Notes under the pieces: model-generated
What the model saw: only the letters and a program-made list of their open reading frames with translations
Databases searched by the model: none
What the model was told of the DNA's origin: nothing
IMG/VR virus record: IMGVR_UViG_3300028833_000081
Location: 71,731-135,730 of that record
From: a virus
Lineage: Duplodnaviria > Heunggongvirae > Uroviricota > Caudoviricetes
Reading direction: 5' to 3' (one strand)
DNA: 64,000 nt
Position numbers and translations under genes: made by a program
Shown: positions 3,401 through 43,634 of the stretch, in pieces
Layout: each line of letters begins with the position of its first letter
Numbering within the stretch: the stretch's first letter is position 1

Positions 3401-5008
3401 CGGAACAATGGCTTTGTTCATTTCTTCATTGACGGCAGTAGTCTTGAACTCTTCGGGTTCCAGATTAGTATCTTCTAGTTCTTTAAGCTTTTCCTTAAGC
3501 GGAATGGTCTTACCATTGATGGTAAGAACAGCCTCTTCTTGTTTCTCTTCAAGCTGAGTAACGGCTTCAGCCTTCCTAATGTTCTGAACTTCCTGCAGTC
3601 TGTTAGCTTTAAGTTCAGTCTTGAGATCATTGACTCTAGTATCGTCATTGATCATTTTCATCAATTCATCAAAGGTCTTGCCCTTAGCTTCAGCACTGAT
3701 TTCATCAACACGATCCTTGATGGTATAAACGAGTTCCTTCTGTTCACTGGTCAAAGGAACGCTATTATTCATACCGGGAACACTCTTGATAATCTCTTCT
3801 TTCTTTTCAGCCAGAATGGGATTCTCTTCGGATCTGTCAATGAAAATCTTTACACCATTGACAGTATCACCGCTCTTCTTGATACCGATAATCTTGAACT
3901 GTTCAAGCTGAACAGAACCTTTGGATTTGTAGAAATTCTTGTTTTTCTCAAGAGTCTTAAAGGAATCATCTGTAGCTTTCAATCTATACAAGGCAATGGT
4001 CTTATTCATCATAGCCTTGATAGCATCGGCAGACTGGTCGTCGCCAGTGAAGATAATAGAATCTTCTACAGGATTACAAGCGGCATTGGGGTAAGTAGAA
4101 TTGATATAACTAGTAATAGCATCGACAGTAGAAGTATAAAGCTTAGTTCTAGAAGGAAATGTTTGGCTCTTTCCAGAGACAGCTCTTTCAACCATGAACA
4201 GATCAGTGGTAGTCTTTGTCTTTTCGACAGGAGCTTCTCCTTCAAGTTCTTCATTGAGATCCTCCTCCGTAATCTTCTGGTCGGTAGTTCCCTTGTAGCA
4301 CAGATTGACCATCCATCTGAATCTAGCAAAGGTCAGCTTATTAATATCCGGAGGGATGACAAACGTAAATCCAGACTTGGGTTCGTACAAGATGCACTTC
4401 CTGCCATAGAAAGGCCAGAAAGTCGGATCATCTTTAATAAAGGCATTCTTTGCAGCAAGATAGAACAAGGATCCAATGCAAAGACCTCTGATTCTCTGGG
4501 ATTCATTATCGCTGAAGTCTTTTCCGAAGATACTACCATCAATGACAACGTACTTGTCTTTATAAATATCTTCCTTACCACGCTTCATAATTACACTTTG
4601 CACTGCTGCAAAGTTTCTAATGAAGGCCATCTTATTCTTAGCGCCTGGGATTTCGAACAATCTGTTCAATTCCTGATACGTAGAGAAATAGGTATTCTTC
4701 AATCTGAGCTGGCCTTGGTTAAGCGGTGTCAGAGAGATACCAGTCTTTTCCTTGACCTGTTCATAGACAGCAAGTCTTTCTGTCTGAATGGTTCTCTTGA
4801 AGACAGACTTATCAAAGAATTTATCCAAATAGAAACAGCGAATATGCTGAGGATCGAACAGTCTGCTGTTCATGATTTGAATCATGTTTTCCAAACTTTC
4901 GGAAAAAATAAGAACGCTATTTTCATACTGCTTACGTTTAGTCGTAAAGACTATCGTAAGATTCTTAAATAGCTTGTACGGCTTTAGGAATTCAAATTTA
5001 GCTCTCAT
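419..5008 (-). CDS. giant virion-associated protein (about 1529 aa), function unknown
   Basis: 4.7-kb uninterrupted ORF. Start moved to Met58 (MRAKFEF) because AGGA lies 8 nt upstream; the first 57 aa of the track ORF look like run-on. Position beside the fibre-like gene suggests a structural role. No polymerase motifs found. Confidence 0.6.
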   Translation of the reverse strand: MRAKFEFLKPYKLFKNLTIVFTTKRKQYENSVLIFSESLENMIQIMNSRLFDPQHIRCFYLDKFFDKSVFKRTIQTERLAVYEQVKEKTGISLTPLNQGQLRLKNTYFSTYQELNRLFEIPGAKNKMAFIRNFAAVQSVIMKRGKEDIYKDKYVVIDGSIFGKDFSDNESQRIRGLCIGSLFYLAAKNAFIKDDPTFWPFYGRKCILYEPKSGFTFVIPPDINKLTFARFRWMVNLCYKGTTDQKITEEDLNEELEGEAPVEKTKTTTDLFMVERAVSGKSQTFPSRTKLYTSTVDAITSYINSTYPNAACNPVEDSIIFTGDDQSADAIKAMMNKTIALYRLKATDDSFKTLEKNKNFYKSKGSVQLEQFKIIGIKKSGDTVNGVKIFIDRSEENPILAEKKEEIIKSVPGMNNSVPLTSEQKELVYTIKDRVDEISAEAKGKTFDELMKMINDDTRVNDLKTELKANRLQEVQNIRKAEAVTQLEEKQEEAVLTINGKTIPLKEKLKELEDTNLEPEEFKTTAVNEEMNKAIVPALRKAYKRDLYDYDQYRIFTSFSESSEFPIFVSSISKEDSSDAYNAKETINVKFNIAGGAPKSLIVDIPKVDQDGFLYLQGNRKQITTQITLMPIVKVWQSGDPVVQYSTSYNKIFISRSTQSLNRKVASLKKGIAKLYEERKTTADGALIVQGRGYRKKFGKALNLEYEEISKFLVYLKIGSLIIDFDPKKCVEALEKPSVDKEKIAEFFPEDKYNYIGTYKGNMLFAAISGEVMMLEKDTPTEVAPSVCGLISAAAKESSKTISDILENSKYTGSSLMFTKLEVANAYIPLIVFLGYKEGIEKIFDTYGVDYKFLPIEKGMDRPAASEEYPEAIKFKNGYLVFKDTNPVHNLLYNGLHQLETSKHNVEEYGASGQGFVDYFADKLTPRYGRALDNFYVLFIDPITKDILRDKGIPNDLVGSFLYCNDLLIDSMFHRRFDTEIYRVRNTECINAMLYKIVAREIESYRRTGTGTGGAFKIKRNALMEEINDTANFEDSTLINPVKDCENMAKAIFKGPGAPDYQHAQGTEEHRFFDKSMIGIYGYSSSYDGNAGMNKKLSMNSSVVSKRGYLKQVDPNKISATSCYSTGELTASFTPNHADPARSMMCVLQTGHMIPSVGMTKALVSNGVYKAIPNIVSQDYCFKAPCDGVVKGFDSKVKYLLKLEYNDGTKGIIDMSPKYCRTPSGFFVHIEYELKKGVKAGYKFKENEVLAFDKHFFTEDAADGIEMSKGVLAKVAICGLDQTYEDASVIGQNLSEKLASEVIEQTSLGLTADSNLISIKKVGDKIKVGEPLAVFESSLESKEISSLLSKLDEDTAEALEANARNSKLSKYEGTIVDIEVFYDKPIEEYSESLQKLINAYIKSVETVNKVCADVRQDQLVRRKDTEIAKYSKAKGVPFEGVMINFYISHLLDYSCGDKLTYDVALKSIVSRILPQNETPISEYRPDKPIDACTSPYGVVNRKVPDVFFLGYTNKALVGLKERVEEIWNGK

Positions 5009-5096
5009 GAGGAATCCTTGTTTAGTTCTAATATGGAGTTCCATACAAAAAAGAAAGCCCGTCCTTGGATAAATCCTTAGATGAGCCGGGAAAACC

Positions 5097-5402
5097 CTAG
5101 TGAATGTTCTTCTTGCACTCGTTCCAGATGTTTGCAGCGATCTTGCTGTGCTTGGAAGCATCTTCGGCATGAACCGCAAGACGGAACACAGTCCAACCGA
5201 CCTTCACTTCGTCACGAGCGCTGATGGAGCTCTCGAAATCGGAGATGTCATCAATGAGACGACGAATGTCGGTTGCCTTGCTGCTTTCCGGATCGGGATC
5301 AACTTCAGACCAGCCGAGGAGCTTGAGCTCCTTCCCGAGTTCGACCTTGCTAGCCTTCAAGTCTTCCAAAAGGGTAGTTACCTGTTCTTTGTCCATCTTC
5401 AT
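5097..5402 (-). CDS. small acidic coiled-coil protein with GC3-rich codon usage (possible moron)
   Basis: 101-aa ORF. RBS aaagga sits 8 nt upstream of the ATG. Codons are G/C-ending, unlike neighbouring genes. Lies between the two giant genes, same strand. Confidence 0.45.
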   Translation of the reverse strand: MKMDKEQVTTLLEDLKASKVELGKELKLLGWSEVDPDPESSKATDIRRLIDDISDFESSISARDEVKVGWTVFRLAVHAEDASKHSKIAANIWNECKKNIH

Positions 5403-5514: not shown

Positions 5515-8500
5515 TTAAGATTGGAGACCGTCGAAACCGCCGCCGCAGATAACAAGTCTATCGAAGTTCTTATTATTAAACTGGAAGAATGTTGATCCGG
5601 TCTGGAATAATGCGCGAGTGTTCTTAGTCATCAGAGTCATATTGCTCAGGGCATTGAGTAAATAGTTATCTGATGCTGAATAGGTCATGATACCTAGACC
5701 GTTAGTCCAAGATTCAACCTCATAGCGAAGAGCCGTGTTATTGGGTGTTGAAATTATCTTTGTTGGTATCAGCAGAATATCTCTGTATTTTGCTTCAATC
5801 CCATATCCAATAACACGTATCCTATAATACGACGGAGATTTGGAAAAGATCATTTGCGCTATGGCGAGCGGGGATAGATCTCCGATGTCACTTGAAGCAT
5901 AGTAATTTCCACTGCTGACTTTGTATTTGTAATAAGAAAATACACTGCCAGCACTGTCGTTACTGGTTGAGTTAAACAGCCGTTTGACACGCATATTTTC
6001 GATATGGCTGTTAAGTAAACTCTCGGTTTCTATATTTAACATCGGCGCTAAGAAAGAATACTTGGGTACTCCGTTTATCGATATCGTAACCGGAACATAT
6101 CTTCCGAGATTCATTTCAGAGGCACTTTCGGAATGTTCGCCAGTGATTTGCGGATAATTTGACGAATTACCGCCACCAACAGTATACTCAATCTCGTCTA
6201 TTGGTGCCGAGAGAGCCTTTATTTCGCCATTATCAATATATACACCGTTACCAGCATCACCAATGTTTGCCGTGCATGCAAGAACCTGTCCGGACTGAAC
6301 GTATACAAACTTGTTGTTAGCGCCCTTACTTCCAGTGATACCAGAATTTGTTGCAGCTATAATACTAGCCCAAGAAGCTCTGCTCACTTCCTCGAATTTG
6401 TCAGCATTATTTTTGAAGGAAAATCCCTGTCCAGTACAATCTGTAGCTCTACGGTCACTATTGGCGGTGCCTTTGTTGTAGACAGCCAATGCTCCCGGAG
6501 TTAGTTTAGTACGGGCTGAACCGACGCCGCTACCTCCTGTCAGCCATATACCGTCACCGCCTTGTATAGCAACTTCGCATTCTGCTGTACCATTCTTTAG
6601 TCTATTATTAGCCCAACACGATAGTCCTTCTTCGCCAATGATAGTATGACCATCATAGTACAGTTCGGGATCGCCGTATCCTGAATAAAGCTCGTAATTC
6701 CTTGTTCCAACGAAGACACCATTTTTTTGGCCAGCACGCATCTCTCTAGTGCTTCCCTCGAATGTTCCAGTTTCAATACCAGGAATCTTAATAAAATTAC
6801 GATCCACATCCTTAGCGTCTATCACAATCTTGTAATAGTTTCTGTACGGGCCGCTTGTAATGGCCCAGAACATGCCCTTGCCTGGTGTAAGCTCACTAGC
6901 AGCAAAGGTGAAATCAGATGCAGTCCGGTTAGAGAATTCTGTCAGGATACGCTGGTTAAATATATACGAGCCTGTTGGAGACCAAGATGTAGTAGACGGG
7001 CCAAATGCGTCGCCAATCCCAATATGGTCAGCAAAGATTTCAGTATAATCGTTCTTAAGATTAGTCGAACTCTGTTTTTCATATCTTCTAAGGATAATAG
7101 ATGCTTGTGCCTCAAACGGATCACCATCCCTATAGGAATGTGCATCTATATCTATAGAAGAGTAAGCATAACCAGAGTTATAATTGGAAGCAATACTAAT
7201 AGATCCTCTATTTCTGTTATCGCTATCCGAAGATGTAGATTTTATTGTAATAGAACCATTAGTGTTCTTATACTCAGAACGAGCTCCTTTAGAATCGACA
7301 TTGTTATAGAGAGAATTGTAGAAGTCATATGCTATACCATGCATAGCTCCAGAGCTATTAACAGATCCTTCTATAACCTGTACCATAGTGTCATTGTAGC
7401 CAATTCTATAGACAGTATCGATATTAGAAGACGTAAGTTTAATAGTATTGCCGTAATCATAGATAGATGAGAAATTTCTATCAAGAGTAAATTCGAACGT
7501 ACCATAATCACTACTAGTGCTCATAGTAGCACGTAGCACTTTTTCTACATTGGATTCTTGATAGGTAGACTTAAGAATCAAAGCGCTCTTAGTATCTCTG
7601 TAGTATTCGCCGACATCCTCTCCTGCCATGAGCTTAGCAATATCAGCACCATTCTTAGACGAAAGAGTCTCGTTAACACTGTTCGCCTGAACAGTTGTTT
7701 GTGCATAATCGTTAGAACTGAATTCAAGAAGATCGCTAACTTGCACCTTAGAAGCGGTACGAACAGTTTGAGCAATACTTCCGTCATCATCAACACTTTG
7801 CGTGATTGTATTATTATTAGCGTCGCTCTTAGCTTCGAACGATGTCTGGTAATTACCACTACCAGATACAACATCACTCTTGGCAAAGATTCTGCTATAG
7901 CTACTGGAGGCATCAAGCTGAATGGAATGGTCATCGCTATCAGTGTTACTTTCAGCTACACGCAGAGTAGCACTACCGCCACTAGCACTCTGGAAATCTA
8001 CGCTAACATTATTGCCGTTAGACTGGATATACGAATGGTTATTCGTAGCCTTATCCATCTTAAAGCTATAGTCACCATTTTTAGCTACAGACATGTTAGC
8101 GGAAGATGTTCCGTTAACATTGCTAATAGTATTCGTTCTTACGCCATTGTCTATTGTGCTCTTCGCTTCAATAGAGCTGGAAGAATCATAACAGAGCGTT
8201 TCGTATACCTTCTCGTTAGAAGAATCAGTCTTATCGACAACACGATCGATATAAGAGCCGTTGGATTCCAACTTCTCTTCAGCTTTCTTGTTAGAAAGCT
8301 TCATTGTCTCTTTTTCATTTCCTCTATCGTAGGAAACTTCGATAGTGTCATTAGCACTAGCTCCTGCAATGATCTTTTTATCAGTGATACGATATGCAGA
8401 ATCATCTTTATAGAGCTTTTCTTCTGTCTTTAGCTTGTCACCATTGTTATAGGTTCCGTAAGTCTTTACTTCGGATGCCTTGTCAACATCAACAGTATCA

Positions 8501-10608
8501 GTAATCGTAGAATTAGAAGAAGTATTCTTAATTCCTTCGGTAACATAACCAGCACCGGATGCACCGTTGCTTACAAGTTTAACTTCGTGGATCTGTCCAT
8601 TATTATCGTTAGCACCACTGGTATGAATATGTTCCTTCGTATCAATGGTATGTGTAATGCCATTTCCTGTATTTGCTACAATGTCCTTAGATTCATTAAT
8701 AGTATAATTGTTACCGCTTCCAGAAACTTCGGTAACGCTAGAGGACTTTCTCTTCAGTTCCTTTGTTTCAGTAATACTATCAACAGAATTTTCACGAGAG
8801 ATTACACTCTTCTGTTCAATATCAGAAGTGACATTACTAGTTTCTGTAATTTTCTGCGTAGACCATTCTTCTACAGTTTGGCTATTAATACCATCATAGG
8901 AATCCGTTTTTCTAACTTGATCCTTGGTAATCTCAAGCTTATCAGAACCAGTTTTAGCATTAACACTCTTAGACTCTACAGTAACCTTATGATTTTCAGC
9001 AGTAGATCCGTCGATATCAATCTTTGTGCCAGCCTTTTCCGTAGAGCTATCTTTTTCGGAAATATGTACGTAAGACTTAGTCTGGGATTCTACATTAACA
9101 CCAGAACTATTCTGCGTAGTGTCTGCACTAATTTCTACTTTTTCGTTGTTGGACTGTACATTAGTAGATGCCTTAGCGCCACTTACTGTTTCTGTGATAT
9201 TACTGTTGTTGTTTTTGATTACGGTTTCACTAGGCTTTACAGAGGTATAAATCTCCTTATCATTACTAGTGATCTGAGCTTCGGACATGGACATTTCTGC
9301 CGCTGTCATGTGCATTGCGTCATCAACAAAAGCTACATTATATAGGAGAATGGAGCCACTCTTGATGGATGCAACATATCCTTCCCCAAGATAATAAATC
9401 TTGGAGAAATCTGCTTCGGAATAGTATGCAGCGTTCTCAAAAAGCTTAGAGAACAAGGTGTTATCAAGGTGTTCGTGGACAGAAACTAGATACCATTTAT
9501 TACCAAAGTTTCTAATAGCGAAAGCCTTGGAATTTCTAAGTTCCTCGTCATTCTTTTTGTATGCCTGATAGTCAATATCATCAATGAAACCAGTAGAGGC
9601 GCTACTTCCTAGATTAATACCAACCTGCTTGCCGTCAACAGAGACAGCTTGATCCTGTGTAACAGATACAAGAGAATTAATACCAAGGGAATGTGCTCTA
9701 GAAAGATTCGGGATCGTTGCAATAGTATAAGAATAGTAAGAACCATTGTAAGAAATGGTCGCTACATTATTTCCGCTAAAGGCATGATAAGTAGTGCTCT
9801 TACCTTCGATTCCATTAATAACAGGACAGAACTCCTGAACAGCCTTTGGAATAGAATGCTCGAAAGAGTATCCAGAAAGAGAGGCACCTGATATCGAAAC
9901 TTTAGTCTTAATATCTTCGTGAAGGTTGATAAGGCTCAATGCGCCATTATCAATCACTAGAAATACACCTTCTTCAGAAATCTGAAGAATAGAGTTTGCT
10001 TTTCTACCTAGAACGTGAAACTCTTCCGATCTAGTAAACATGTCTTCGTCTTCTTCAGATTCAGGAGTATCAGTCTTAAGAACAAAAAGCTCGAGAGTGT
10101 TGTCACTATACTTAACAAGGAAACCCATGCCAGCCGCAGTACGACACATAAAGATTCTTTCGGCGTTAGACCCGGCATTGAAAGCAAAGTTGAGCCGGAG
10201 TTCGGACTTTCTCAGTACACCGTTAAAGTCCTTGTACTCTACTCTACCAGTATTTCCTGTTTTAAGGATGGCTACGTACAGTTCATCCAAAGAAGTAATA
10301 TCTTTGATGTCCGTAGCTCTTCCGAGAATTTTATCATAAGACTCAAGAGTGCCTCTAGCCTTCAGATATTCGCCATTTTCGGTAAGAACATCGTAGTCAG
10401 AGTCATCGCCCATACAAACATACTTATGTACACCATTGTCGATAATGTGTGTATACACATTACCGAGCTTGTCAATAAAGATCTCTCCAACTCTAGGAAG
10501 ATCCGGATCCATAATTCTAGGTACATTACTATGTACAGGAGGATCGTAAGGCGTTCCAACGGAATTAGTCCAAGTCCATTTCAAAGGCTTAATAATAAAG
10601 CGACTCAT
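5515..10608 (-). CDS. tail fibre or receptor-binding-like giant structural protein (about 1697 aa)
   Basis: 5.1-kb ORF. Start at MSRFII has AAGGAG 6 nt upstream. Central 900 aa is extremely Ser/Thr/Asn/Asp-rich with short repeats, typical of fibres or adhesins. The C-terminal 400 aa is Gly/Tyr-rich and globular. Confidence 0.6.
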   Translation of the reverse strand: MSRFIIKPLKWTWTNSVGTPYDPPVHSNVPRIMDPDLPRVGEIFIDKLGNVYTHIIDNGVHKYVCMGDDSDYDVLTENGEYLKARGTLESYDKILGRATDIKDITSLDELYVAILKTGNTGRVEYKDFNGVLRKSELRLNFAFNAGSNAERIFMCRTAAGMGFLVKYSDNTLELFVLKTDTPESEEDEDMFTRSEEFHVLGRKANSILQISEEGVFLVIDNGALSLINLHEDIKTKVSISGASLSGYSFEHSIPKAVQEFCPVINGIEGKSTTYHAFSGNNVATISYNGSYYSYTIATIPNLSRAHSLGINSLVSVTQDQAVSVDGKQVGINLGSSASTGFIDDIDYQAYKKNDEELRNSKAFAIRNFGNKWYLVSVHEHLDNTLFSKLFENAAYYSEADFSKIYYLGEGYVASIKSGSILLYNVAFVDDAMHMTAAEMSMSEAQITSNDKEIYTSVKPSETVIKNNNSNITETVSGAKASTNVQSNNEKVEISADTTQNSSGVNVESQTKSYVHISEKDSSTEKAGTKIDIDGSTAENHKVTVESKSVNAKTGSDKLEITKDQVRKTDSYDGINSQTVEEWSTQKITETSNVTSDIEQKSVISRENSVDSITETKELKRKSSSVTEVSGSGNNYTINESKDIVANTGNGITHTIDTKEHIHTSGANDNNGQIHEVKLVSNGASGAGYVTEGIKNTSSNSTITDTVDVDKASEVKTYGTYNNGDKLKTEEKLYKDDSAYRITDKKIIAGASANDTIEVSYDRGNEKETMKLSNKKAEEKLESNGSYIDRVVDKTDSSNEKVYETLCYDSSSSIEAKSTIDNGVRTNTISNVNGTSSANMSVAKNGDYSFKMDKATNNHSYIQSNGNNVSVDFQSASGGSATLRVAESNTDSDDHSIQLDASSSYSRIFAKSDVVSGSGNYQTSFEAKSDANNNTITQSVDDDGSIAQTVRTASKVQVSDLLEFSSNDYAQTTVQANSVNETLSSKNGADIAKLMAGEDVGEYYRDTKSALILKSTYQESNVEKVLRATMSTSSDYGTFEFTLDRNFSSIYDYGNTIKLTSSNIDTVYRIGYNDTMVQVIEGSVNSSGAMHGIAYDFYNSLYNNVDSKGARSEYKNTNGSITIKSTSSDSDNRNRGSISIASNYNSGYAYSSIDIDAHSYRDGDPFEAQASIILRRYEKQSSTNLKNDYTEIFADHIGIGDAFGPSTTSWSPTGSYIFNQRILTEFSNRTASDFTFAASELTPGKGMFWAITSGPYRNYYKIVIDAKDVDRNFIKIPGIETGTFEGSTREMRAGQKNGVFVGTRNYELYSGYGDPELYYDGHTIIGEEGLSCWANNRLKNGTAECEVAIQGGDGIWLTGGSGVGSARTKLTPGALAVYNKGTANSDRRATDCTGQGFSFKNNADKFEEVSRASWASIIAATNSGITGSKGANNKFVYVQSGQVLACTANIGDAGNGVYIDNGEIKALSAPIDEIEYTVGGGNSSNYPQITGEHSESASEMNLGRYVPVTISINGVPKYSFLAPMLNIETESLLNSHIENMRVKRLFNSTSNDSAGSVFSYYKYKVSSGNYYASSDIGDLSPLAIAQMIFSKSPSYYRIRVIGYGIEAKYRDILLIPTKIISTPNNTALRYEVESWTNGLGIMTYSASDNYLLNALSNMTLMTKNTRALFQTGSTFFQFNNKNFDRLVICGGGFDGLQS

Positions 10609-10686
10609 AAAGTCTCCTTGCATTTGATTATCAATGATAAAGTTTTTGTAAAAAATTCCAGTATGGAAATACCATACTGGATAATT

Positions 10687-11661: not shown

Positions 11662-12525
11662 ATGAATACAGCTCTATGCTTGTCTGTATCTGGTGGCGGT
11701 ATCCTTGGTGTAGGCCCTGCCCACTATCTTGCCCGTCTTGAAGGAGACCTTGGGTATTCTCTTCATAAGAAACTTGCAGCTCAAGGTGGAACCTCTACCG
11801 GGTCTATCATTGCTGCTGCTATGGCAGAAGAAATTCCGGCAATAGAAATTGAGGAACTCTACCGTTCGAAAGGTTCTAGAATCTTTACTAAATATCCTTG
11901 GTATAAGAGACTCACTCCGACCTGTCCTACGTACGACAATTCTAACCTTAAAAAGATTCTGAAAGACAAGTTCAAGGGTAAACTCTGCGACTGGGGTGAA
12001 CCGACTTTCATCACCACTACATACATGAACGGAAGATCTGTCGAGAAGATTTGGGATGAAAAAGATGTTGAAGAAAAGTGGTTTGCTATTCTTACATCTT
12101 GTGCTGCTCCGACATACTTTGACGTGATTATCGACAACCTCGCAAGAAGCTTTTGTGATGGCGGTATGTGGGCTAATTCCTGTCCTCAGCTTGTGATGGC
12201 TGGAATGTTCCGTAGAGGTCATCGTGATATTCGTATTCTGAACCTTGAAACTGGTATGGATGTTCCAAACAATGATAGCGGAAATAAGACTTTGATAGGA
12301 TGGGCTACATACATCTTTAAGAAGTGGGTAGCCAGAGCTTCTAAAGCTAACGCATATATTTGCTCTTCTGTTCTTGGCGACGAGAACTTCTTCAACGTGA
12401 TGCCTGTATCTCATAAGACTCATGAAATGGACGATATGAGAGAGATTGATATTGTAACTGATATCTGGGATAAGAAGTACGACCAAGATCGTGAAAAGCT
12501 CTTAAGATTTGTGGATCCGAGGTAA
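11662..12525 (+). CDS. patatin-like phospholipase (PNPLA family)
   Basis: Oxyanion box SGGGILGVG, nucleophile elbow G-T-S-T-G (GxSxG), and catalytic Asp in DGGMWANSCP (DGGxxxNxP). RBS ggagga upstream. Confidence 0.8.
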   Translation: MNTALCLSVSGGGILGVGPAHYLARLEGDLGYSLHKKLAAQGGTSTGSIIAAAMAEEIPAIEIEELYRSKGSRIFTKYPWYKRLTPTCPTYDNSNLKKILKDKFKGKLCDWGEPTFITTTYMNGRSVEKIWDEKDVEEKWFAILTSCAAPTYFDVIIDNLARSFCDGGMWANSCPQLVMAGMFRRGHRDIRILNLETGMDVPNNDSGNKTLIGWATYIFKKWVARASKANAYICSSVLGDENFFNVMPVSHKTHEMDDMREIDIVTDIWDKKYDQDREKLLRFVDPR

Positions 12526-12527
12526 CT

Positions 12528-12965
12528 ATGTTGTATCACTCTAGAATGATTAATGCTAGACGTGGCCCATTCGATCAGGTTGATGCTGAGCTCTATAACT
12601 TTTTCAAGCAGGGTGATACATTAGCCGTAAGATACACATCCAAGAATTTTGCCTTGTTTGTCAATGATAAGCAGTACAGCTCTAGGATCGATATCACTCC
12701 AGACGAAGGTGGATACTATCTTATCGATACAATTAAAGGCAGATTCTTCTTGGAGAGAAACGAAGAAGATTACTTCATCATGCCAGCTAGAACCTATAAG
12801 GATGTAAATGGCGAAACCCAGTTTTGTCCTGACGATTCTAATAAGCTCCGACTGAAGAAAATTAGAAAGCCCTTTATCGGTGGCAAGAATTGCGCCTGTT
12901 CTATCCCCTATGGAAAAAGGTGTAATCGGAAGATGGGCCAACGACCTCTCAATGCTGGTATATAG
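12528..12965 (+). CDS. hypothetical protein (145 aa), inside the patatin/protease module
   Basis: Tightly packed between the phospholipase and ATPase-protease genes. C-terminal Cys/Lys-rich tail (GGKNCACSIPYGKRCNRK). Confidence 0.5.
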   Translation: MLYHSRMINARRGPFDQVDAELYNFFKQGDTLAVRYTSKNFALFVNDKQYSSRIDITPDEGGYYLIDTIKGRFFLERNEEDYFIMPARTYKDVNGETQFCPDDSNKLRLKKIRKPFIGGKNCACSIPYGKRCNRKMGQRPLNAGI

Positions 12966-12997
12966 GGGAACTTTAGAATGAAACAAAAGGATCTTTT

Positions 12998-14974
12998 ATG
13001 AACAAAGAATCGATGAAAAAATATGACGAGCTCATGGAAGCCGCTACTAAGATCAAGGGTATGCTCCTTGATTGTGACAAGCAAGTTGACCAGTTTGCAC
13101 AGCTGTTGGCTCCTTGGTACTGCGCTCCTGAGCTGCTCACGAAACCTCTGGTTATCAATATGGTCGGTATGACTGGTATTGGTAAGACTCAGATGTTCCG
13201 TCTGTTCTGCTCCGAACTTGGGCTGAACAATATGGCTGAAACCATGACTTGTGCTAACAATTCTTCTGTATCCCCCGGTAGAACGGCTTTCAGAATGAAG
13301 GAAGAACAGGGTCTTGAGAAAGGTATTATCTTCATCGATGAATTCCAGAACTTCTCTTGCAAGGGAATGATGGGTACTAGAACAAACAATCCTAGTACAC
13401 AGGAATTCTGGGATATCTTGTCTGATGGAAAGATCAAGATTAATTTCTCCAAAGATGAACTTGAGAACCTGATGTTTAGAGCTCAGGGTCAGATGAATGA
13501 AATAGCTAAGGCTGCTGCCAGCGGAGAAAAGTCTCTCGAAAGAAACTTTCCGACATTCTTCGGTTCTACTGCCTATAAGCTGTTCATCCTTTGTAAGAAG
13601 AAAGTTCCTCTGGAAAAAATTAAGAAGATGTCTGGTAAGGAATCCTTTGAATTTATTAAGGGTCTTTACGACAACTACGACAATAAGCCGATCTACTCTG
13701 ACTTTACGAAGTTCCTGTTTGTCACTGCTTGCAATCTTGACTGTGTATTTGCTGATGCTGAAGACGTAGCTTCCTGTGAAATCGATGCAGATGAAGTATA
13801 CGAGTCTTCTAAGGAAGTAAATATCTTCGATGTTAAGGAAGGACTTGGCATGTACTTCTTCCCTGAACAAGTAGCAAGACTTGGCAATAACTTTGTCATC
13901 TTCCACTCTCTGTCCAAGAGCACATTTGAAAAGCTCATTGATAATGCTCTTGACGAAATTGTCAAGAACACTAAGGAATCTATCGGAACAGAGATTACCT
14001 TTGATAAGTCTGTCAAGGAAATGATCTACCGCAACGGTGTATTCCCGACTCAAGGTGCTAGACCTTTGATTTCTACTATCAATGGTGTGATCGCTTCTTC
14101 TATCCCTATGCTTGTCTTCAAACAAAAGGAAGCAGATAAGAAGATTACGATTAAGTACAATGATGAGACCATGGAGCTTGAAGCAAATGGCGTTAAGACC
14201 AGTTGCATTGGGCCATATGACGAGAGCGCAAGAAGAATCAAAGTCAGAATAAACGAAAGACGTTGTACGTCTGTTCATGAATCTGGCCATGCTATTGTCT
14301 ATGCCGAATCTTTTGGAGCAATTCCTAGAAAGATGGTTAGTATTGTAGCTGACTCTAGAGTTGCTGCCGGGTTTATTTCTACACATCTTATCCGTCACAC
14401 CTGTGTTACAATGAAGGCATACATCTGTGTGGCACTGGCTGGAATGGTCGCCGAAGAGGTCGTCTTTGGTAAGGACTTCAGAACTGTCGGTTGCTCTTCT
14501 GACTTGGCTAAGGCTACTGCAATGGCTGCTGCTTATGTTAGAAAGTTTGCATTCACTGATAAGGTCAAGGCAGTTGTCGGCACTAATGAAGCTACATATA
14601 ATAAGATGTCTGAAACGTCTGAAGTTATCAACGACATTATCAAAGAATGCATCAAGACAACTAAGGAAATCATTACAAAGAATATTGATCTCCTTAAGGA
14701 AGTCTCTGAAGTAATGTTTGATAAGACCAGATGTACTCCGGAAGAATTCAAGGCTATTGCCGATAAACACAACAAAAAATACACGATTGTCAGTGCCTCC
14801 AAGAAGATTACTCCTAACTTTGAAGAACGCTACAAGATGTTCGATGAATCCAAAGTCAAGAGTATGGAGGAGGTATCTAATGCTAAGGAATGTATGTCAT
14901 TCTTCGATGATGCATACGTCGGAGCAGATGGCACTATGTCTCTAGCATCTGATGATCCTTTCCTGCTGTTCTAA
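12998..14974 (+). CDS. P-loop ATPase fused to FtsH-like (M41) zinc metalloprotease, soluble (no TM segments)
   Basis: Walker A GMTGIGKT and Walker B IIFIDEF. HESGHAIV (HExxH) is followed by a region collinear with the FtsH protease domain (PRKMVSIV..., AEEVVFG..., SSDLAKATAMAAAYV). No N-terminal hydrophobic helices. Confidence 0.75.
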   Translation: MNKESMKKYDELMEAATKIKGMLLDCDKQVDQFAQLLAPWYCAPELLTKPLVINMVGMTGIGKTQMFRLFCSELGLNNMAETMTCANNSSVSPGRTAFRMKEEQGLEKGIIFIDEFQNFSCKGMMGTRTNNPSTQEFWDILSDGKIKINFSKDELENLMFRAQGQMNEIAKAAASGEKSLERNFPTFFGSTAYKLFILCKKKVPLEKIKKMSGKESFEFIKGLYDNYDNKPIYSDFTKFLFVTACNLDCVFADAEDVASCEIDADEVYESSKEVNIFDVKEGLGMYFFPEQVARLGNNFVIFHSLSKSTFEKLIDNALDEIVKNTKESIGTEITFDKSVKEMIYRNGVFPTQGARPLISTINGVIASSIPMLVFKQKEADKKITIKYNDETMELEANGVKTSCIGPYDESARRIKVRINERRCTSVHESGHAIVYAESFGAIPRKMVSIVADSRVAAGFISTHLIRHTCVTMKAYICVALAGMVAEEVVFGKDFRTVGCSSDLAKATAMAAAYVRKFAFTDKVKAVVGTNEATYNKMSETSEVINDIIKECIKTTKEIITKNIDLLKEVSEVMFDKTRCTPEEFKAIADKHNKKYTIVSASKKITPNFEERYKMFDESKVKSMEEVSNAKECMSFFDDAYVGADGTMSLASDDPFLLF

Positions 14975-14975
14975 T

Positions 14976-15254
14976 ATGGAAACTGCTGAATTCGCACTGT
15001 ACAAATTTAAGACTATCGAAGGTGTTGATATCCACTGGAAATCAGGAGATTTCACACATTCGAAGTATTGTCATAATGGTAAGAGTGCCGAGATAGAGTA
15101 TTTTCCTGCAACTGACAGAGCTATGGTCACCTTTAAAGGTGAGCTAAAGCCAGCTGTTAAGTTCGACAAGCTGCGAGAGTATCTCGAAACATTAGGTATC
15201 TTCAAAGAGTCACCTAAGGAAGAGAGACATTCAAGCTCTTATGCACCCTTATAG
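14976..15254 (+). CDS. hypothetical protein (92 aa)
   Basis: ATG 2 nt after the protease stop. Last gene of the plus-strand block before a bidirectional terminator. Confidence 0.4.
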   Translation: METAEFALYKFKTIEGVDIHWKSGDFTHSKYCHNGKSAEIEYFPATDRAMVTFKGELKPAVKFDKLREYLETLGIFKESPKEERHSSSYAPL

Positions 15255-15303
15255 AAAAAAAAAAGAAGCTCCCTATACAGACAAGTATAGGGCGCTTATT
15301 TTC
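15251..15303. terminator. bidirectional terminator between convergent genes
   Basis: A10 run, hairpin agctccctatac/gtatagggcgct, then a T-rich run. Confidence 0.6.
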
Positions 15304-22302: not shown

Positions 22303-24588
22303 ATGATCACAGAGATCGAAAAAAGAGATGGAAGAGTCGTACCGTTCAGCGAACAGAAAGTGTTCAATGCGGTATATAAGTCATTTGCTGAAGTAGCTGC
22401 AAAGAAAGGTACTGAAGTAGATGAAAACAATGTCAAGTCTGTTGTAGATGAAGTCGTTAGCGACATTCAGGATCTTCAGGCTGACCGTCTGCAGATTGAT
22501 GAGATGCAATCTATCGTCATCTGCGCTATTAAGGATAAGGGATTTACCGAAGAGTTTGAGGCTTATCGTAACTTCCGTAACCGTCGTAATCGTGCTAGAA
22601 ATCGTAAGATGCCGTTGTACTCTAAGCTCGCCGATATTACTTTCAGCGATCTTGAAGATTCTAACATCAAGCGTGAAAATGGTAACATCGATGGAAATTC
22701 CGCTATGGGTAAGATGCTTCGCTATGGTTCTGAAGCCGCCAAGGAATTCTTCCTCGATCGTGTTATCAATGAGAAATTTTCTAATGCTCACCGTGAAGGC
22801 TTCTGCCATATTCACGACATGGATTTTTATGGTATTACTACCACTTGCACCCAGATCGACTTGGTGCAGATGCTAGAAACTGGTTTTAATACTGGTCATG
22901 GATTTGTCCGTCCTCCGCATTCTATTCGTTCTGCTGCTGCCCAAGCCGCTATTCTTATTCAGTCTAACCAGAACGACCAGCATGGTGGCCAGTCTATCCC
23001 CAACTTCGACTTGGCTCTTGCTAAGTATGTAAGATTGTCTTTCAACAAGATGCTCCGTCATGAACTCGAAGATGCATTGTTCCTTGCCGATATGCGAGAA
23101 GATCTTGCTAAGGCTATGATCAAGGATCTTTTCGGTGACAATGAACTTAAGTATACTATGGAAGATGAGGAAATCTTCGCCAAGGATGCTAAGGGTGTTG
23201 GTCTTGAAGAAGCCGAAGGACACAAGCTTTGGAAGCTGTCCATGAAGCGTACTGAAGGGAAAACCTATCAGGCTATGGAAGCTTTGTTGTTCAACCTTAA
23301 TACCATGCATAGTCGTGCAGGTGCTCAGGTTCCGTTCTCTTCTATCAACTATGGTACCGAGACTTCTAAGGAGGCTCGTATGGTGATCAAGTGTATGCTT
23401 GAAGCCACTGATGCAGGTCTCGGTCATGGTGAAACTCCGATTTTCCCGATTCAGATCTTCCGTGTGATGGAAGGCGTGAATTACAATCCGGGCGATCCCA
23501 ACTATGATCTCTTCAAGCTTGCTATGAAGGTATCTGCGCACAGATTCTTCCCGAACTGGGAATTCCAGGATTCTCCGTTCAATATGCAGTACTATGTGCC
23601 GGGTAAGCCTGAAACAATGATTTCTACCATGGGTTGTCGTACTCGTGTTGTGGCTGACGTTAATGCCGATGTTCCGCAGGTATGGCGTAGAGGCAATCTC
23701 TCGTTCACCACTATCAACCTGCCGAGACTTGCAATCATCAACCGTGGTAACTGGGCTGGATTCTATGCAGACCTTGACAAGTACATGGAACTTTGCAGGG
23801 ATCAGTTGCTTGAACGTTATGCTCTTCAGTGCAAGCAGAAAGTTAAGAACTTCAAGTTCCTTATGGGTCAGCATGTATGGCTCGGTTCTGAAAACCTGAA
23901 GCCCAATGATACTCTTGAATCCGTATTGAAGCACGGTTCGCTCTCTATCGGTTTCATTGGCCTTGCTGAAGCATTGATTCTTATGACTGGCCACCATCAT
24001 GGCGAGTCTGAAGAATCCCAGAAAGAAGGTCTTGCAATCGTCAAGCATATGAGAGATTACTGTGACAGGATGACTGAAAAGTACAACCTCAACTTTACTC
24101 TTCTCGCAACTCCAGCTGAAGGACTTTCTGGTCGTTTCACTAAGATTGACAGAGCAAAGTTCGGTGACATTCCGGGAATTACCGATAAGGGATTCTACAC
24201 TAACTCCTGTCACATTCCTGTGGACTATAAGTGCTCTGCTTTCCACAAGATCAAGGTTGAAGCTCCATATCATGCATTGTGCAATGCTGGTCATATCCTC
24301 TATGTCAAGATGGATGGCGATGCTACCCAGAATCTTGAAGCATACGAGAAGATTGTCCGTTGTATGCATGACAACAATGTTGGCTATGGCGCTATTAATA
24401 TTGATGTGGATTACTGCCCTAACTGCCATAAGTCTGGTATCTTCAATGAAGACAAGTGTCCGTTCTGTGGTTATGATCATATCGACCGTATCAGACGTAT
24501 TACTGGGTATCTTGTTGGCACATTGGATAACTGGAACAATGGCAAGCTGGCAGAATACAGAAAGAGACTTATCGGTAAGAATGTCTAA
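22303..24588 (+). CDS. nrdD: anaerobic ribonucleoside-triphosphate reductase (class III RNR, NrdD)
   Basis: 761 aa. N-terminal ATP-cone-like MITEIEKRDGRVVPFSEQKV. C-terminal zinc ribbon CPNCHKSG...CPFCG. Glycyl-radical motif RRITGYLVG. Confidence 0.9.
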   Translation: MITEIEKRDGRVVPFSEQKVFNAVYKSFAEVAAKKGTEVDENNVKSVVDEVVSDIQDLQADRLQIDEMQSIVICAIKDKGFTEEFEAYRNFRNRRNRARNRKMPLYSKLADITFSDLEDSNIKRENGNIDGNSAMGKMLRYGSEAAKEFFLDRVINEKFSNAHREGFCHIHDMDFYGITTTCTQIDLVQMLETGFNTGHGFVRPPHSIRSAAAQAAILIQSNQNDQHGGQSIPNFDLALAKYVRLSFNKMLRHELEDALFLADMREDLAKAMIKDLFGDNELKYTMEDEEIFAKDAKGVGLEEAEGHKLWKLSMKRTEGKTYQAMEALLFNLNTMHSRAGAQVPFSSINYGTETSKEARMVIKCMLEATDAGLGHGETPIFPIQIFRVMEGVNYNPGDPNYDLFKLAMKVSAHRFFPNWEFQDSPFNMQYYVPGKPETMISTMGCRTRVVADVNADVPQVWRRGNLSFTTINLPRLAIINRGNWAGFYADLDKYMELCRDQLLERYALQCKQKVKNFKFLMGQHVWLGSENLKPNDTLESVLKHGSLSIGFIGLAEALILMTGHHHGESEESQKEGLAIVKHMRDYCDRMTEKYNLNFTLLATPAEGLSGRFTKIDRAKFGDIPGITDKGFYTNSCHIPVDYKCSAFHKIKVEAPYHALCNAGHILYVKMDGDATQNLEAYEKIVRCMHDNNVGYGAINIDVDYCPNCHKSGIFNEDKCPFCGYDHIDRIRRITGYLVGTLDNWNNGKLAEYRKRLIGKNV

Positions 24589-38730: not shown

Positions 38731-38991
38731 ATGCAGATTACGAAAGTTACGATTAGGAAAGAAACTCATAACATGGGCAAGACTCTCGGAAAGGCTGATA
38801 TCATCTTTGATGATCAGCTTCTTATTAGAGGGATCAAGATAAAAGATGGTGTGAATGGGATGTATCTTTCTATGCCTACCGATCTTACATCTGATAAAGA
38901 GTACAAGAGTATTGTGTTTCCGATCACGAGAGAACTTCGTGAGCATATGGAGACCAAAGTATTGGAAGCTTACCAAAACGCAGGTGACTAA
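38731..38991 (+). CDS. spoVG: SpoVG-like nucleic-acid-binding regulator
   Basis: Translation MQITKVTIRKE...KADIIFDDQLLIRGIKIKDGVNGMYLSMP...EYKSIVFPITRELRE is collinear with bacterial SpoVG (MxITDVR...FVVHDIRVI.G..GLFVAMP...FRDIAHPI). RBS ggagat upstream. Confidence 0.65.
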   Translation: MQITKVTIRKETHNMGKTLGKADIIFDDQLLIRGIKIKDGVNGMYLSMPTDLTSDKEYKSIVFPITRELREHMETKVLEAYQNAGD

Positions 38992-41606: not shown

Positions 41607-41627
41607 AAGGCTCTGCCTTCTTTTTTG
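41605..41627 (+). terminator. rho-independent terminator
   Basis: Hairpin agaaggc tct gccttct, then TTTTTT. Confidence 0.55.
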
Positions 41628-41659
41628 TATTTTCTATGATCCTAAATGTATATTAAAAG
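41627..41659 (+). promoter_or_regulatory. promoter-like box (tttctatgatcc ... tgtatattaaaag)
   Basis: Same motif family; TTTG about 24 nt upstream of TATATTAA. Confidence 0.45.
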
Positions 41660-41688
41660 ATAGTCAAACATCAACAAAGGAGAATTCT

Positions 41689-42431: not shown

Positions 42432-42596
42432 AACGAGGGCTTTCGTAAAAGCCTTTTGGCTTTGGAGGCCAAATCAAGATAGATAGATTACAGATCTATT
42501 CCACACGAACCCGTGTGGGGGTGTAAATCACAGTCTCGCAATGAGTCCAAAAAGGCGAGCAAGCCGCCTCCCCGGATTACTGTAAAACCAACCTGC

Positions 42597-43526: not shown

Positions 43527-43574
43527 TTCATTCTCCTATTGAGTGTTTTATGGTTAATACTGCATTATTATATG

Positions 43575-43612: not shown

Positions 43613-43634
43613 CAGACTTCACAAGGAGAATGAT

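What the first reader, a model, noticed from the sequence alone, without database searches (positions are those of the whole stretch)
12998..14974. FtsH-like M41 protease without membrane anchor and with an enlarged, divergent NTPase domain
Canonical FtsH has two N-terminal TM helices and a compact roughly 230-aa AAA module. This protein has no hydrophobic N-terminus. About 400 aa of P-loop domain (GMTGIGKT, IIFIDEF, sensor-like LFVTACN) precede HESGHAIV and the FtsH-like C-terminal helices. A cytosolic FtsH-like machine encoded by a phage would be expected to target specific soluble host or phage proteins, for example defence proteins or regulators. This is unusual enough to merit structural and substrate analysis.
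Basis: partly seen in the sequence, partly recalled or inferred. Interest (0 to 1): 0.65.

Follow-up and report, generated by a model that had tools for sequence, protein, structure and literature searches.

The report
Soluble Clp-type ATPase fused to FtsH-type protease
A jumbo phage carries a membrane-free protein that joins a Clp/Hsp100-type ATPase motor to an FtsH-type (M41) zinc protease. This chimeric protease design is widespread in large phages and some bacteria, and I found no published description of it.

Summary
The ORF (12998-14974, +, 658 aa) is real, intact and under purifying selection (dN/dS about 0.10). It has no membrane anchor. An in-frame stop lies 7 codons upstream of the ATG, and no hydrophobic segment reaches TM level.

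The ATPase is not an enlarged FtsH AAA module. It is a Clp/Hsp100 D2-type (HCLR-clade) module with a D2-small domain, a sensor-2 GAR motif and a Clp-type Arg-finger motif. A helical insertion of about 93 aa sits inside the pre-sensor-1 hairpin. The canonical aromatic pore-1 loop is missing.

This is therefore not an FtsH. It is a chimeric single-chain AAA+ protease family. The family has at least 512 clusters (50% identity). It occurs in many uncultivated large-phage contigs (up to 548 kb) and in at least 448 bacterial species, but in none of 50,697 deposited phage genomes. No curated family model covers it, and no paper found describes it. No partner gene is conserved.

The most likely function is a soluble hexameric ATP-dependent protease used for phage-controlled proteolysis. 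Its substrates are unknown.

The parts
12998..14974 (+). Whole gene, 658 aa: Clp-D2-type AAA+ module, then M41 zinc peptidase, then a clade-specific C-terminal tail
   Evidence: - ORF.
- Start fixed by an upstream in-frame stop.
- AF2 model: mean pLDDT 87.1, pTM 0.80.
- dN/dS 0.10 versus L004.
12998..13165 (+). N-terminal helices (residues 1-56) that precede the P-loop, equivalent to the helices that open a Clp D2 module. There is no TM segment.
   Evidence: - The profile aligns residues 6-97 to ClpE 426-516.
- Helices 3-22 and 27-42 in the model.
- KD maximum 0.95 in the first 120 aa.
13166..13189 (+). Walker A, GMTGIGKT (residues 57-64)
   Evidence: G57, T59, G60, G62, K63 and T64 are invariant in 97 sequences.
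13250..13276 (+). beta2-alpha2 connector (residues 85-93), the position of pore loop 1. It is short and has no Ar-Phi-Gly motif.
   Evidence: Column 93 is W in 51/97 and Y in 11/97 of the family, but P in the window clade.
13325..13345 (+). Walker B, IIFIDEF (residues 110-116)
   Evidence: D114 and E115 are invariant.
13346..13390 (+). Loop after Walker B (residues 117-131, the pore-loop-2 position), carrying K-G-M-M-G-T-R
   Evidence: - G126 is present in 92/97 sequences.
- The G-Phi-Phi-G-x-R motif occurs in 14 of the 17 window-clade sequences.
- It never occurs together with the pore-1-position aromatic residue.
13433..13711 (+). Helical insertion (residues 146-238) between the two strands of the pre-sensor-1 beta-hairpin. 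It is the fastest-evolving part and a candidate substrate- or adaptor-recognition element.
   Evidence: - Model: strands 145-148 and 232-235 flank helices 152-175, 190-198, 205-210 and 213-226.
- The insertion is 78-134 aa across the alignment.
- The DGK-to-sensor-1 distance is 81-219 aa in 207 members.
- dN/dS is 0.16-0.31, against 0.06-0.08 in the cores.
13712..13735 (+). beta4 strand and sensor-1, FLFVTACN (residues 239-246)
   Evidence: N246 is invariant. It lies at the end of strand 239-246 in the model.
13862..13888 (+). PEQVARLGN (residues 289-297), the Clp-type Arg-finger motif (R294)
   Evidence: - E290, R294, G296 and N297 are invariant.
- The motif aligns to ClpE/ClpC 'PEFLNR'.
13910..14212 (+). 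Clp D2-small domain (residues 305-405), including sensor-2 QGARP (352-356; 14051-14065) and the terminal beta-strands
   Evidence: - Pfam ClpB_D2-small: 33.2 bits against a 21.9 cut-off.
- Q352, G353 and R355 are invariant.
- Aligns to ClpC 691-811.
14240..14767 (+). M41 zinc-metallopeptidase domain (residues about 415-590). HESGH is at 427-431 (14276-14290) and the third zinc ligand D502 at 14501-14503.
   Evidence: - Pfam PF01434, E 6e-20.
- Yme1 1e-13, FtsH 1e-9.
- H427, E428, H431, E486 and D502 are invariant.
14768..14971 (+). Clade-specific C-terminal extension (residues 591-658): a conserved KITPNFEERYKMF...SFF block, a variable linker, and an acidic/aromatic tip (SDDPFLLF)
   Evidence: - The tail is 58-94 aa in the 17 window-clade proteins, against a median of 27 elsewhere.
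- pLDDT is below 50 for residues 638-658.
- dN/dS 0.22.
11662..12965 (+). Co-oriented upstream genes: a patatin-like phospholipase (11662-12525) and a 145-aa ORF (12528-12965). They may share a transcription unit with the gene but are not family-wide partners.
   Evidence: - Gaps of 3 and 33 bp.
- Syntenic only in the closest relatives L004 and L005.
- Patatin and PADLOC phospholipase-effector hits.
14952..15292 (+). Overlapping downstream 100-aa ORF (14952-15254), followed by a terminator-like hairpin (15271-15292)
   Evidence: - ORF.
- The ORF is conserved only in L004.
- Hairpin. This is a consensus match only.

Best explanation
**What it is.** The gene encodes a soluble, single-chain ATP-dependent zinc metalloprotease of an uncharacterised chimeric family.

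- One Clp/Hsp100-D2-type (HCLR-clade) AAA+ module is fused directly to an FtsH-type M41 peptidase domain.
- The AAA+ module has a large domain with Walker A, Walker B, sensor-1 and an Arg finger, and a D2-small domain with sensor-2 GAR.

**How it probably works (inferred).** By analogy with FtsH, Lon and Clp machines, six chains would form an ATPase ring stacked on a peptidase ring.

- ATP hydrolysis would remodel or unfold soluble substrates and feed them to the enclosed HEXXH sites.
- The ~93-aa helical insertion in the pre-sensor-1 hairpin evolves fastest, so it probably supplies substrate or adaptor recognition.
- Substrate gripping cannot use a canonical GYVG/FVG pore-1 loop. In this clade it may use the G-M-M-G-x-R loop after Walker B.

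**Role in the phage (inferred).** The jumbo phage would gain proteolysis under its own control, acting on host or phage cytosolic proteins independently of host Clp, Lon or FtsH.

**Shown here:** domain identities, intact catalytic residues, absence of a membrane anchor, family distribution, purifying selection.

**Inferred only:** hexamer formation, translocation, role of the insertion, substrates.
For: - **Catalytic residues.** All catalytic residues of both domains are invariant in 97 sequences that share only 24-81% identity with the query.
- **HEXXH retention.** 252 of 256 relatives with a Walker A keep HEXXH.
- **Selection.** dN/dS is 0.10 overall, 0.06 in the M41 domain and 0.16-0.31 in the insertion.
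- **No TM segment**.
- **Model quality.** Confident single-chain model, pLDDT 87.1 and pTM 0.80.
- **Stand-alone gene.** No partner is conserved across 80 viral and 80 bacterial loci beyond genus-level synteny. This fits a self-sufficient fused machine.
- **Setting in other phages.** In other large phages it sits among helicase, ligase and Thg1 genes rather than morphogenesis genes.
Against: - The canonical aromatic pore-1 loop needed for threading in FtsH and Clp is absent. In the window's clade even the family's Trp/Tyr at that position is replaced by Pro.
- The idea of a compensating G-Phi-Phi-G loop rests on one clade, which is effectively one evolutionary event.
- Oligomeric state, pore geometry and the location of the insertion relative to the pore could not be examined. 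Only a monomer summary is available.
- The window protein itself misses the Pfam AAA threshold (20.6 against 21.2 bits) and gives no AAA_2 hit. The central part of its ATPase domain is very divergent.
- No substrate, adaptor or expression data exist.
- The biological role in the phage is pure inference.
Confidence: 0.6

Rival explanations
1. It is a true FtsH homologue that lost its transmembrane region and whose own AAA module drifted and expanded.
For: - The overall order, ATPase then M41, is the same as in FtsH.
- Full-length Foldseek top hits are FtsH, Yme1 and AFG3L2.
- Source pipelines name relatives 'cell division protease FtsH'.
Against: - The ATPase-only profile finds Clp/Hsp100 D2 entries exclusively in its top 38 matches, and no FtsH chain among the 60 listed.
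- An invariant sensor-2 Arg in a GAR motif, a Clp-type PEQVAR Arg-finger motif and a D2-small domain are all present.
- The FtsH equivalog score is 65.9 against a 600-bit cut-off, and it comes from the M41 part only.
- The full-length FtsH superpositions have rmsd of 10-12 Å.
Confidence: 0.04
2. It is a non-threading, ATP-regulated site-specific protease or remodeller. The Clp-like module binds and perhaps remodels a specific target through the helical insertion and switches the M41 site on, without processive translocation.
For: - There is no canonical pore-1 loop.
- The insertion evolves fastest, as expected for a specificity element.
- Conserved upstream membrane proteins in two lineages (DUF4407 in Chryseobacterium; a 456-aa three-TM-segment protein in one viral clade) hint at dedicated partners or targets.
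Against: - The Walker B, Arg finger, sensor-1 and sensor-2 are all invariant. This argues for a fully cycling ring ATPase.
- About two-thirds of the family keep an aromatic residue at the pore-1 position.
- In every studied case M41 peptidases work as enclosed hexameric chambers (established knowledge of FtsH and Yme1).
Confidence: 0.2
3. It is a conflict-system component. The bacterial homologues would be anti-phage defence or abortive-infection effectors, and the phage copy a counter-defence protease that destroys host immune proteins or acts as a decoy.
For: - In the window it lies 2 genes downstream of a patatin phospholipase that matches the PADLOC CBASS effector model at 1e-37.
- In Pseudarcicella the homologue lies near AAA_15/AAA_21 and SF1 helicase genes.
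- There are weak PADLOC hits to the ClpB-like DolB.
Against: - No PADLOC model matches beyond generic Clp similarity (E 8e-4).
- Bacterial copies are stably syntenic within genera, next to housekeeping genes such as IMPDH and RuvC-like genes. They are not in variable islands.
- No partner is conserved.
- Purifying selection is strong.
- The patatin linkage exists only in the two closest relatives.
Confidence: 0.1
4. It is a virion-associated or morphogenetic protease that processes or clears structural proteins during assembly.
For: - In the window it lies between two giant unannotated ORFs and a virion structural protein gene, phrog_3004.
- The FtsH-like protein of phage PA5oct was annotated as structural (PMC6892783).
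Against: - The PA5oct/MIJ3 protein is not detectably related. It is absent from the tblastn hits.
- In other large phages the gene sits in replication and repair neighbourhoods.
- Bacterial homologues exist outside prophage-like contexts.
- An ATP-dependent chambered protease is not a known prohead protease type (own knowledge).
Confidence: 0.05

Closest known systems
FtsH / Yme1 / AFG3L2 (M41 AAA proteases)
   Same: - Single chain with an ATPase N-terminal to an M41 peptidase.
- HEXXH plus a downstream Asp zinc ligand and the C-terminal helices.
- The peptidase domain superposes at 1.7 Å rmsd with 29% identity.
   Different: - No transmembrane or periplasmic N-terminal region.
- The ATPase belongs to the HCLR/Clp clade rather than the classical clade.
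- A sensor-2 Arg is present, and there is no FVG pore loop.
- It fails the FtsH equivalog model.
Clp/Hsp100 D2 modules and single-ring relatives (ClpA, ClpB, ClpC and ClpE D2; CLPB/Skd3; ClpX; HslU)
   Same: - Opening helices, Walker A and B, sensor-1, a PEF/QxxR Arg-finger motif, a D2-small domain with GAR(P) sensor-2, and terminal beta-strands.
   Different: - The peptidase is fused covalently and is a zinc M41 domain, instead of a separate ClpP or HslV.
- There is a single ring, with no N-domain or M-domain.
- There is no GYVG loop.
- An 80-220-aa helical insertion lies inside the pre-sensor-1 hairpin.
- Scores are far below the ClpB and ClpV equivalog cut-offs.
Lon (LonA/LonB)
   Different: - The Lon peptidase is a Ser-Lys S16 domain, not a zinc M41 domain.
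- Lon has a large N-terminal substrate-binding domain and canonical pore loops.
HslU I-domain / ClpB M-domain (inserted helical domains in Clp-type ATPases)
   Same: A helical domain is inserted into the AAA+ module and projects from the ring to handle substrates or partners (established knowledge). This resemblance is by analogy only.
   Different: - The insertion point differs. Here it lies between the strands of the pre-sensor-1 hairpin. The HslU I-domain lies between Walker A and B, and the ClpB M-domain lies in the D1 small domain.
- No sequence similarity was detected.
'FtsH-like' proteins reported in cultured phages (Pseudomonas phage MIJ3 gp107 / PA5oct gp342; Microcystis phage MaAM05 ftsH)
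   Same: They are phage-encoded proteins with an M41-type annotation, of unknown role (PMC6892783).
   Different: - MIJ3 and PA5oct are not found by tblastn with either the window protein or a central family member.
- MaAM05 matches over the M41 part only, 26% of the query.
- No deposited phage genome holds a full-length member of this family.

Membership tests
FtsH family (TIGR01241; membrane-anchored M41 AAA protease) | Two N-terminal transmembrane helices flanking a periplasmic domain | tested here: not met
   - Walker A starts at residue 57.
- KD-19 maximum is 0.95 in the first 120 aa and 1.59 overall.
- The ORF cannot extend upstream.
- The family as a whole has no N-terminal hydrophobic segment.
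FtsH family (TIGR01241; membrane-anchored M41 AAA protease) | Classical-clade AAA module (PF00004 with a second region of homology and no sensor-2 Arg) | tested here: not met
   - PF00004 scores 20.6 bits against a 21.2 cut-off, and only over residues 55-123.
- The ATPase-only profile lists no FtsH chain among its 60 shown matches.
- An invariant GAR sensor-2 is present.
FtsH family (TIGR01241; membrane-anchored M41 AAA protease) | Aromatic-hydrophobic-Gly pore-1 loop (MFVG) | tested here: not met
   The beta2-alpha2 connector is 'CANNSSVSP', with no Ar-Phi-Gly motif.
FtsH family (TIGR01241; membrane-anchored M41 AAA protease) | Curated equivalog score | tested here: not met
   65.9 bits against a 600-bit cut-off, matching the profile's positions 413-593 only.
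Peptidase family M41 (Pfam PF01434 / MEROPS M41 peptidase unit) | Domain score above the gathering threshold | tested here: met
   72.3 bits against 29.9. Residues 419-586 cover profile positions 6-190 of 191.
Peptidase family M41 (Pfam PF01434 / MEROPS M41 peptidase unit) | HEXXH zinc site plus a third ligand Asp | tested here: met
   - H427, E428, H431 and D502 are invariant in 97 sequences.
- They align to the corresponding FtsH and Yme1 motifs.
Peptidase family M41 (Pfam PF01434 / MEROPS M41 peptidase unit) | M41 fold | tested here: met
Clp/Hsp100 D2-type AAA+ module (Pfam AAA_2 PF07724 + ClpB_D2-small PF10431; HCLR clade) | D2-small domain with a sensor-2 Arg in a GAR motif | tested here: met
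   - PF10431 scores 33.2 bits against 21.9.
- Q352, G353 and R355 are invariant.
- Aligns to ClpC 691-811.
Clp/Hsp100 D2-type AAA+ module (Pfam AAA_2 PF07724 + ClpB_D2-small PF10431; HCLR clade) | AAA_2-type large domain with Walker A and B, sensor-1, Arg finger and a pre-sensor-1 hairpin | tested here: met
   - The motifs are invariant.
- PF07724 is recorded for many relatives, though not for the window protein itself.
- Hairpin strands 145-148 and 232-235 are present in the model.
Clp/Hsp100 D2-type AAA+ module (Pfam AAA_2 PF07724 + ClpB_D2-small PF10431; HCLR clade) | GYVG-type pore-1 loop | tested here: not met
   The connector is short and lacks the motif. The family has W or Y at one position in 62/97 sequences, and the window clade has P.
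Clp/Hsp100 D2-type AAA+ module (Pfam AAA_2 PF07724 + ClpB_D2-small PF10431; HCLR clade) | Membership of a named Clp protein (ClpB, ClpV or ClpA equivalogs), or docking to a separate ClpP/HslV | tested here: not met
   - ClpB equivalog: 34 bits against 1232. ClpV: 21 against 885.
- The peptidase is fused, not separate.
- ClpP-docking loops were not searched for.
Known anti-phage defence systems (PADLOC-DB v2) | Match to a defence-protein model | tested here: not met
   There is only a marginal DolB (ClpB-like) hit, E 8e-4, with no stretch passing on its own.
Self-compartmentalising hexameric AAA+ protease (functional class) | Hexameric ring stack with an enclosed proteolytic chamber and ATP-dependent degradation | not testable with these tools
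   Only a monomer model summary is available. This needs multimer modelling, cryo-EM or biochemistry.

The most novel reading that the evidence does not exclude
This gene may represent an undescribed architectural class of ATP-dependent protease, alongside ClpXP, ClpAP/ClpCP, HslUV, Lon and FtsH.

- It would be a soluble machine in which a Clp-type (HCLR) unfoldase ring is covalently fused to an FtsH-type M41 zinc-protease ring.
- It would have re-engineered substrate-handling elements: no GYVG loop, and a helical recognition domain grown out of the pre-sensor-1 hairpin.
- Many deep lineages of huge phages would carry it as a stand-alone gene, to run proteolysis under viral control.
- The single bacterial clade may descend from, or have seeded, the viral pool.
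Probability: 0.4. Interest if true: 0.75.

Novelty: new variant of a known kind. Interest (0 to 1): 0.6.

Why it matters
Textbook bacterial AAA+ proteases pair each peptidase type with one ATPase lineage, and M41 is known only with the membrane-anchored classical-clade FtsH motor.

- **Modularity in nature.** A natural, widespread chimera of a Clp-type motor with the M41 chamber shows that unfoldase and peptidase modules have been recombined in nature. It also gives a soluble, anchor-free M41 machine, which should be much easier to study than FtsH.
- **Translocation mechanism.** It poses a mechanistic question: how does a ring without the canonical aromatic pore-1 loop deliver substrates?
- **Phage biology.** It marks a conserved but unstudied function of uncultivated huge phages, namely virus-encoded ATP-dependent proteolysis. 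Its substrates could include host regulators or defences.
- **A way in experimentally.** Homologues in cultured Chryseobacterium and Flectobacillus offer a tractable route to function.

Tried and rejected
- **Close phage relatives.** megablast of the locus and tblastn of the protein against 50,697 deposited phages found only partial hits (17-28% of the query), to the M41 part or, for two Listeria phage records, the Clp-like part. A second tblastn with a central family member (P0021) did no better.
- **Conserved partner genes.** I clustered ORFs all-vs-all around 80 viral and 80 bacterial loci. Only clade- or genus-level synteny appeared: patatin plus ORF145 in L004/L005, DUF4407 in Chryseobacterium, HflX in Spirosomaceae, and a three-TM-segment protein in one viral clade. 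I rejected all of these as family-wide partners.
- **Defence-system membership.** PADLOC gave nothing meaningful.
- **Curated family names.** NCBIfam has no dedicated model. PHROGs gives partial hits only: phrog_4871 over the Clp-like part and phrog_30773 over the M41 part.
- **Literature.** Eight searches covered FtsH with phage or jumbo phage, M41 with Clp, soluble or cytosolic FtsH, DUF4407, and novel AAA+ protease. I also read two papers. No description of this architecture turned up. The library does not cover most subscription journals.
- **AFDB50 fold search.** The library was not available. BFVD gave only distant giant-virus FtsH and phage ClpA matches.
- **Antisense ORF.** The 620-aa ORF inside the gene (12908-14770, minus strand) is broken up in L004 and L005, so I rejected it as a gene.
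- **Promoter scan.** It found no more sites than shuffled sequence.
- **Limits of the model.** I could not inspect model coordinates, so pore geometry and the orientation of the insertion remain unknown.
Full report
**Observation**

The ORF at 12998..14974 (+) is present exactly as reported and encodes 658 aa. An in-frame TAG lies seven codons upstream of the ATG. No alternative start lies between them, and an AAGGA-like ribosome-binding sequence sits upstream, so the N-terminus cannot be longer. The quoted motifs are at residues 57-64 (GMTGIGKT), 110-116 (IIFIDEF), 240-246 (LFVTACN) and 427-431 (HESGH).

No 19-residue window reaches the usual Kyte-Doolittle TM threshold. The maximum is 1.59 at residue 356, inside a globular domain, and the first 120 residues peak at 0.95.

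The surrounding DNA is consistent with a jumbo phage. It carries virion structural PHROGs, NrdD and NAD synthetase, and the identical protein occurs on a 235-kb contig.

**The C-terminal domain**

Residues about 415-590 are a genuine M41 peptidase.
- Pfam PF01434 scores 72.3 bits against a 29.9 cut-off.
- phmmer against PDB sequences gives Yme1 at 1e-13 and FtsH at 1e-9. HESGH aligns on HEAGH, and 'SSDL' aligns on the zinc-ligand Asp motif.
- H427, E428, H431, E486 and D502 are invariant in a 97-sequence family alignment.

**The ATPase**

The module is not a swollen FtsH AAA domain.
- Pfam finds ClpB_D2-small above its threshold at residues 305-377, and only a sub-threshold PF00004 match at 55-123.
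- Relatives carry PF07724 (AAA_2) plus PF10431.
- I cut residues 1-405 out of the family alignment and searched PDB sequences with that profile. The first 38 matches are all D2 rings of ClpE, ClpC, ClpB, Hsp101, Hsp104 and ClpA (1e-15 to 2e-7). No FtsH chain is among the 60 matches listed.
- The alignments show the Clp D2 opening helices ('...VGQD..V..V...I.......RP...FLF.GPTGVGKTEL'), the PEF/QxxR Arg-finger motif and the GARP sensor-2 motif.
- G57, K63, T64, D114, E115, N246, R294, G353 and R355 are invariant.
- The FtsH equivalog model scores 65.9 bits against a 600-bit cut-off, from the M41 part only.

**Why the ATPase part is about 400 aa**

Two features explain the size.
- The Clp-type small domain with its terminal beta-strands extends to about residue 405.
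- A helical insertion at residues 146-238 lies between two short strands (145-148 and 232-235). These strands occupy the position of the HCLR-clade pre-sensor-1 hairpin, just before the sensor-1 strand 239-246.

The insertion is universal in the family. There are 81-219 residues between the W..LSDGK motif and sensor-1 in 207 members. It is also the fastest-evolving region, with dN/dS of 0.16-0.31 against 0.06-0.08 in the catalytic cores.

**Pore loops**

The canonical aromatic pore-1 loop is absent.
- The beta2-alpha2 connector is short. It carries W or Y at one position in 62 of 97 sequences, but P in the window's clade.
- The window's clade instead has a G-Phi-Phi-G-x-R motif (KGMMGTR, RGFMGAR) in the loop after Walker B.
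- The two features never co-occur: 0 of 97 have both, 62 have only the first, and 14 have only the second.
- This is one clade, so I treat it as a hint and not as evidence.

**C-terminal tail**

The window's clade also has an extra C-terminal tail of 40-60 residues. It has a conserved KITPNFEERYKMF...SFF block and an acidic/aromatic tip.

**Distribution**

- *Family size.* The full protein finds more than 800 relatives in the 90%-cluster database, mostly about 620 aa. The ATPase module alone finds 512 clusters (50% identity) at E ≤ 1e-30 and 924 at E ≤ 1e-10, nearly all 600-720 aa long.
- *Uncultivated viruses.* IMG/VR holds at least 150 loci. Many of the 80 retrieved lie on contigs of 200-548 kb.
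They include many cultured Chryseobacterium, plus Flectobacillus, Pseudarcicella, Thiothrix and Thiofilum. MAGs of Saprospiraceae, cyanobacteria, Acidobacteriota and Actinomycetota also carry it.
- *Deposited phages.* None of the 50,697 deposited phage genomes has a full-length member, and BFVD has no close structural match.
- *Tree.* In an unbootstrapped NJ tree the 79 bacterial sequences form one clade without viral members. The viral sequences form several deep lineages, and the window's clade sits on a long branch. The viral copies are therefore not mis-binned bacterial DNA. The direction of transfer is unresolved.

**Genomic context**

No partner gene is conserved.
- The upstream patatin gene and the 145-aa ORF are syntenic only in the two closest relatives, at 74-81% identity.
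- Chryseobacterium pairs the gene with an upstream DUF4407 membrane/coiled-coil protein (21 loci).
- Spirosomaceae follow it with HflX (7 loci).
- One viral clade precedes it with a 456-aa protein with three hydrophobic, TM-like segments by eye.
- Other lineages have unrelated neighbours.
- In other large phages the gene sits among SF1 helicase, DNA ligase, RNA ligase and Thg1-like genes.
- PADLOC gives only a marginal ClpB-like (DolB) hit.

**Mechanism**

What is shown: two intact catalytic modules, no anchor, purifying selection (dN/dS 0.10), and stand-alone inheritance.

What is inferred by analogy with FtsH, Lon and Clp machines:
- a hexamer with a D2-type ATPase ring on an M41 disc;
- ATP-driven delivery of soluble substrates to enclosed zinc sites;
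- the hairpin insertion acting as a recognition element;
- a role in phage-controlled proteolysis of host or phage proteins.

The missing canonical pore loop is the main argument against processive threading. It keeps alive a rival in which the ATPase regulates a more specific cleavage. Defence or counter-defence and morphogenetic roles are possible but have little support.

**Comparison and novelty**

- The protein is a member of peptidase family M41 at the domain level.
- It is not a member of the FtsH family: the TM anchor, classical AAA module, pore loop and equivalog score were all tested and not met.
- It is not a member of any named Clp protein family.
- In design it most resembles Lon, which also fuses an HCLR ATPase to its peptidase in one soluble chain. 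Here the fused peptidase is the FtsH-type M41.
- No NCBIfam model, informative PHROG or PADLOC entry covers it.
- Eight literature searches and two papers read gave no description. The library is incomplete, so prior mention elsewhere cannot be excluded.
- I rate it a new variant of a known kind, the AAA+ protease, with moderate-to-high interest.

Noticed in passing
window 11662-12525 (+): A patatin-like phospholipase lies two genes upstream. It matches the PADLOC CBASS phospholipase-effector (CapV-like) models at E 1e-37 (Pfam Patatin 6e-13). The GxSxG and DGG motifs are visible by eye. No cyclase was seen nearby. A phage-borne CapV-like enzyme could act in lysis, exclusion or as a decoy.
   Followed up: partly
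window 12908-14770 (-): A 620-aa antisense ORF lies entirely inside the protease gene. It is broken into pieces of 123-225 aa in the 74-81% relatives L004 and L005, so it is most likely a codon-usage artefact and not a gene.
   Followed up: yes
window 419-5179 (-) and 5515-10623 (-): Two giant ORFs (1586 and 1702 aa) have no Pfam match at all. The first is conserved in L004 and L005. Their function is unknown.
   Followed up: no
window 42355-42431 (-): ARAGORN calls a tRNA-Ser with the unusual anticodon ACT. The nearest large ORFs (41575-42159, 42513-43856) are on the opposite strand. It may be a false positive or an odd tRNA.
   Followed up: no
window 14768-14971 (+); relatives P0002-P0017: The window's clade ends in an acidic/aromatic C-terminal tip (SDDPFLLF, VDDLFLDF, DIDLPF, DSLWDD) after a disordered linker. 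From my own knowledge, this is reminiscent of SSB-type docking tails. It could be an adaptor-docking or autoregulatory motif.
   Followed up: partly
L085-L133 (Chryseobacterium loci, upstream of the match); L016, L030, L033-L038, L067, L072 (viral): Membrane proteins sit directly upstream of the protease gene in two unrelated lineages. Chryseobacterium has DUF4407, with a gap of 15 bp or less. One viral clade has a 456-aa protein with three hydrophobic, TM-like segments (judged by eye), with a gap of 0-47 bp. This hints that the soluble protease may be recruited to the membrane in trans in some lineages.
   Followed up: partly
L001 9894-11150; L101, L146, L154, L155, L157: In Spirosomaceae (Pseudarcicella, Arcicella, Flectobacillus) the bacterial homologue is followed by an HflX-type GTPase gene. 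This echoes the E. coli hflX-hflKC link to FtsH (HflB), which I recall from my own knowledge. It may be coincidence.
   Followed up: no
window 10657-10681 and 15271-15292: Bidirectional terminator-like hairpins bracket the plus-strand block 11662-15254 (patatin, ORF145, protease, ORF100). This suggests one transcription unit. Promoter-like matches were no more frequent than in shuffled sequence.
   Followed up: partly
window 38991-39752 (+) and 22303-24588 (+): An NAD synthetase-like gene (phrog_11189) and an NrdD anaerobic ribonucleotide reductase are present. This fits an anaerobic, gut or rumen-type jumbo phage with its own NAD+ metabolism (compare PMC11662467, title and abstract only).
   Followed up: no
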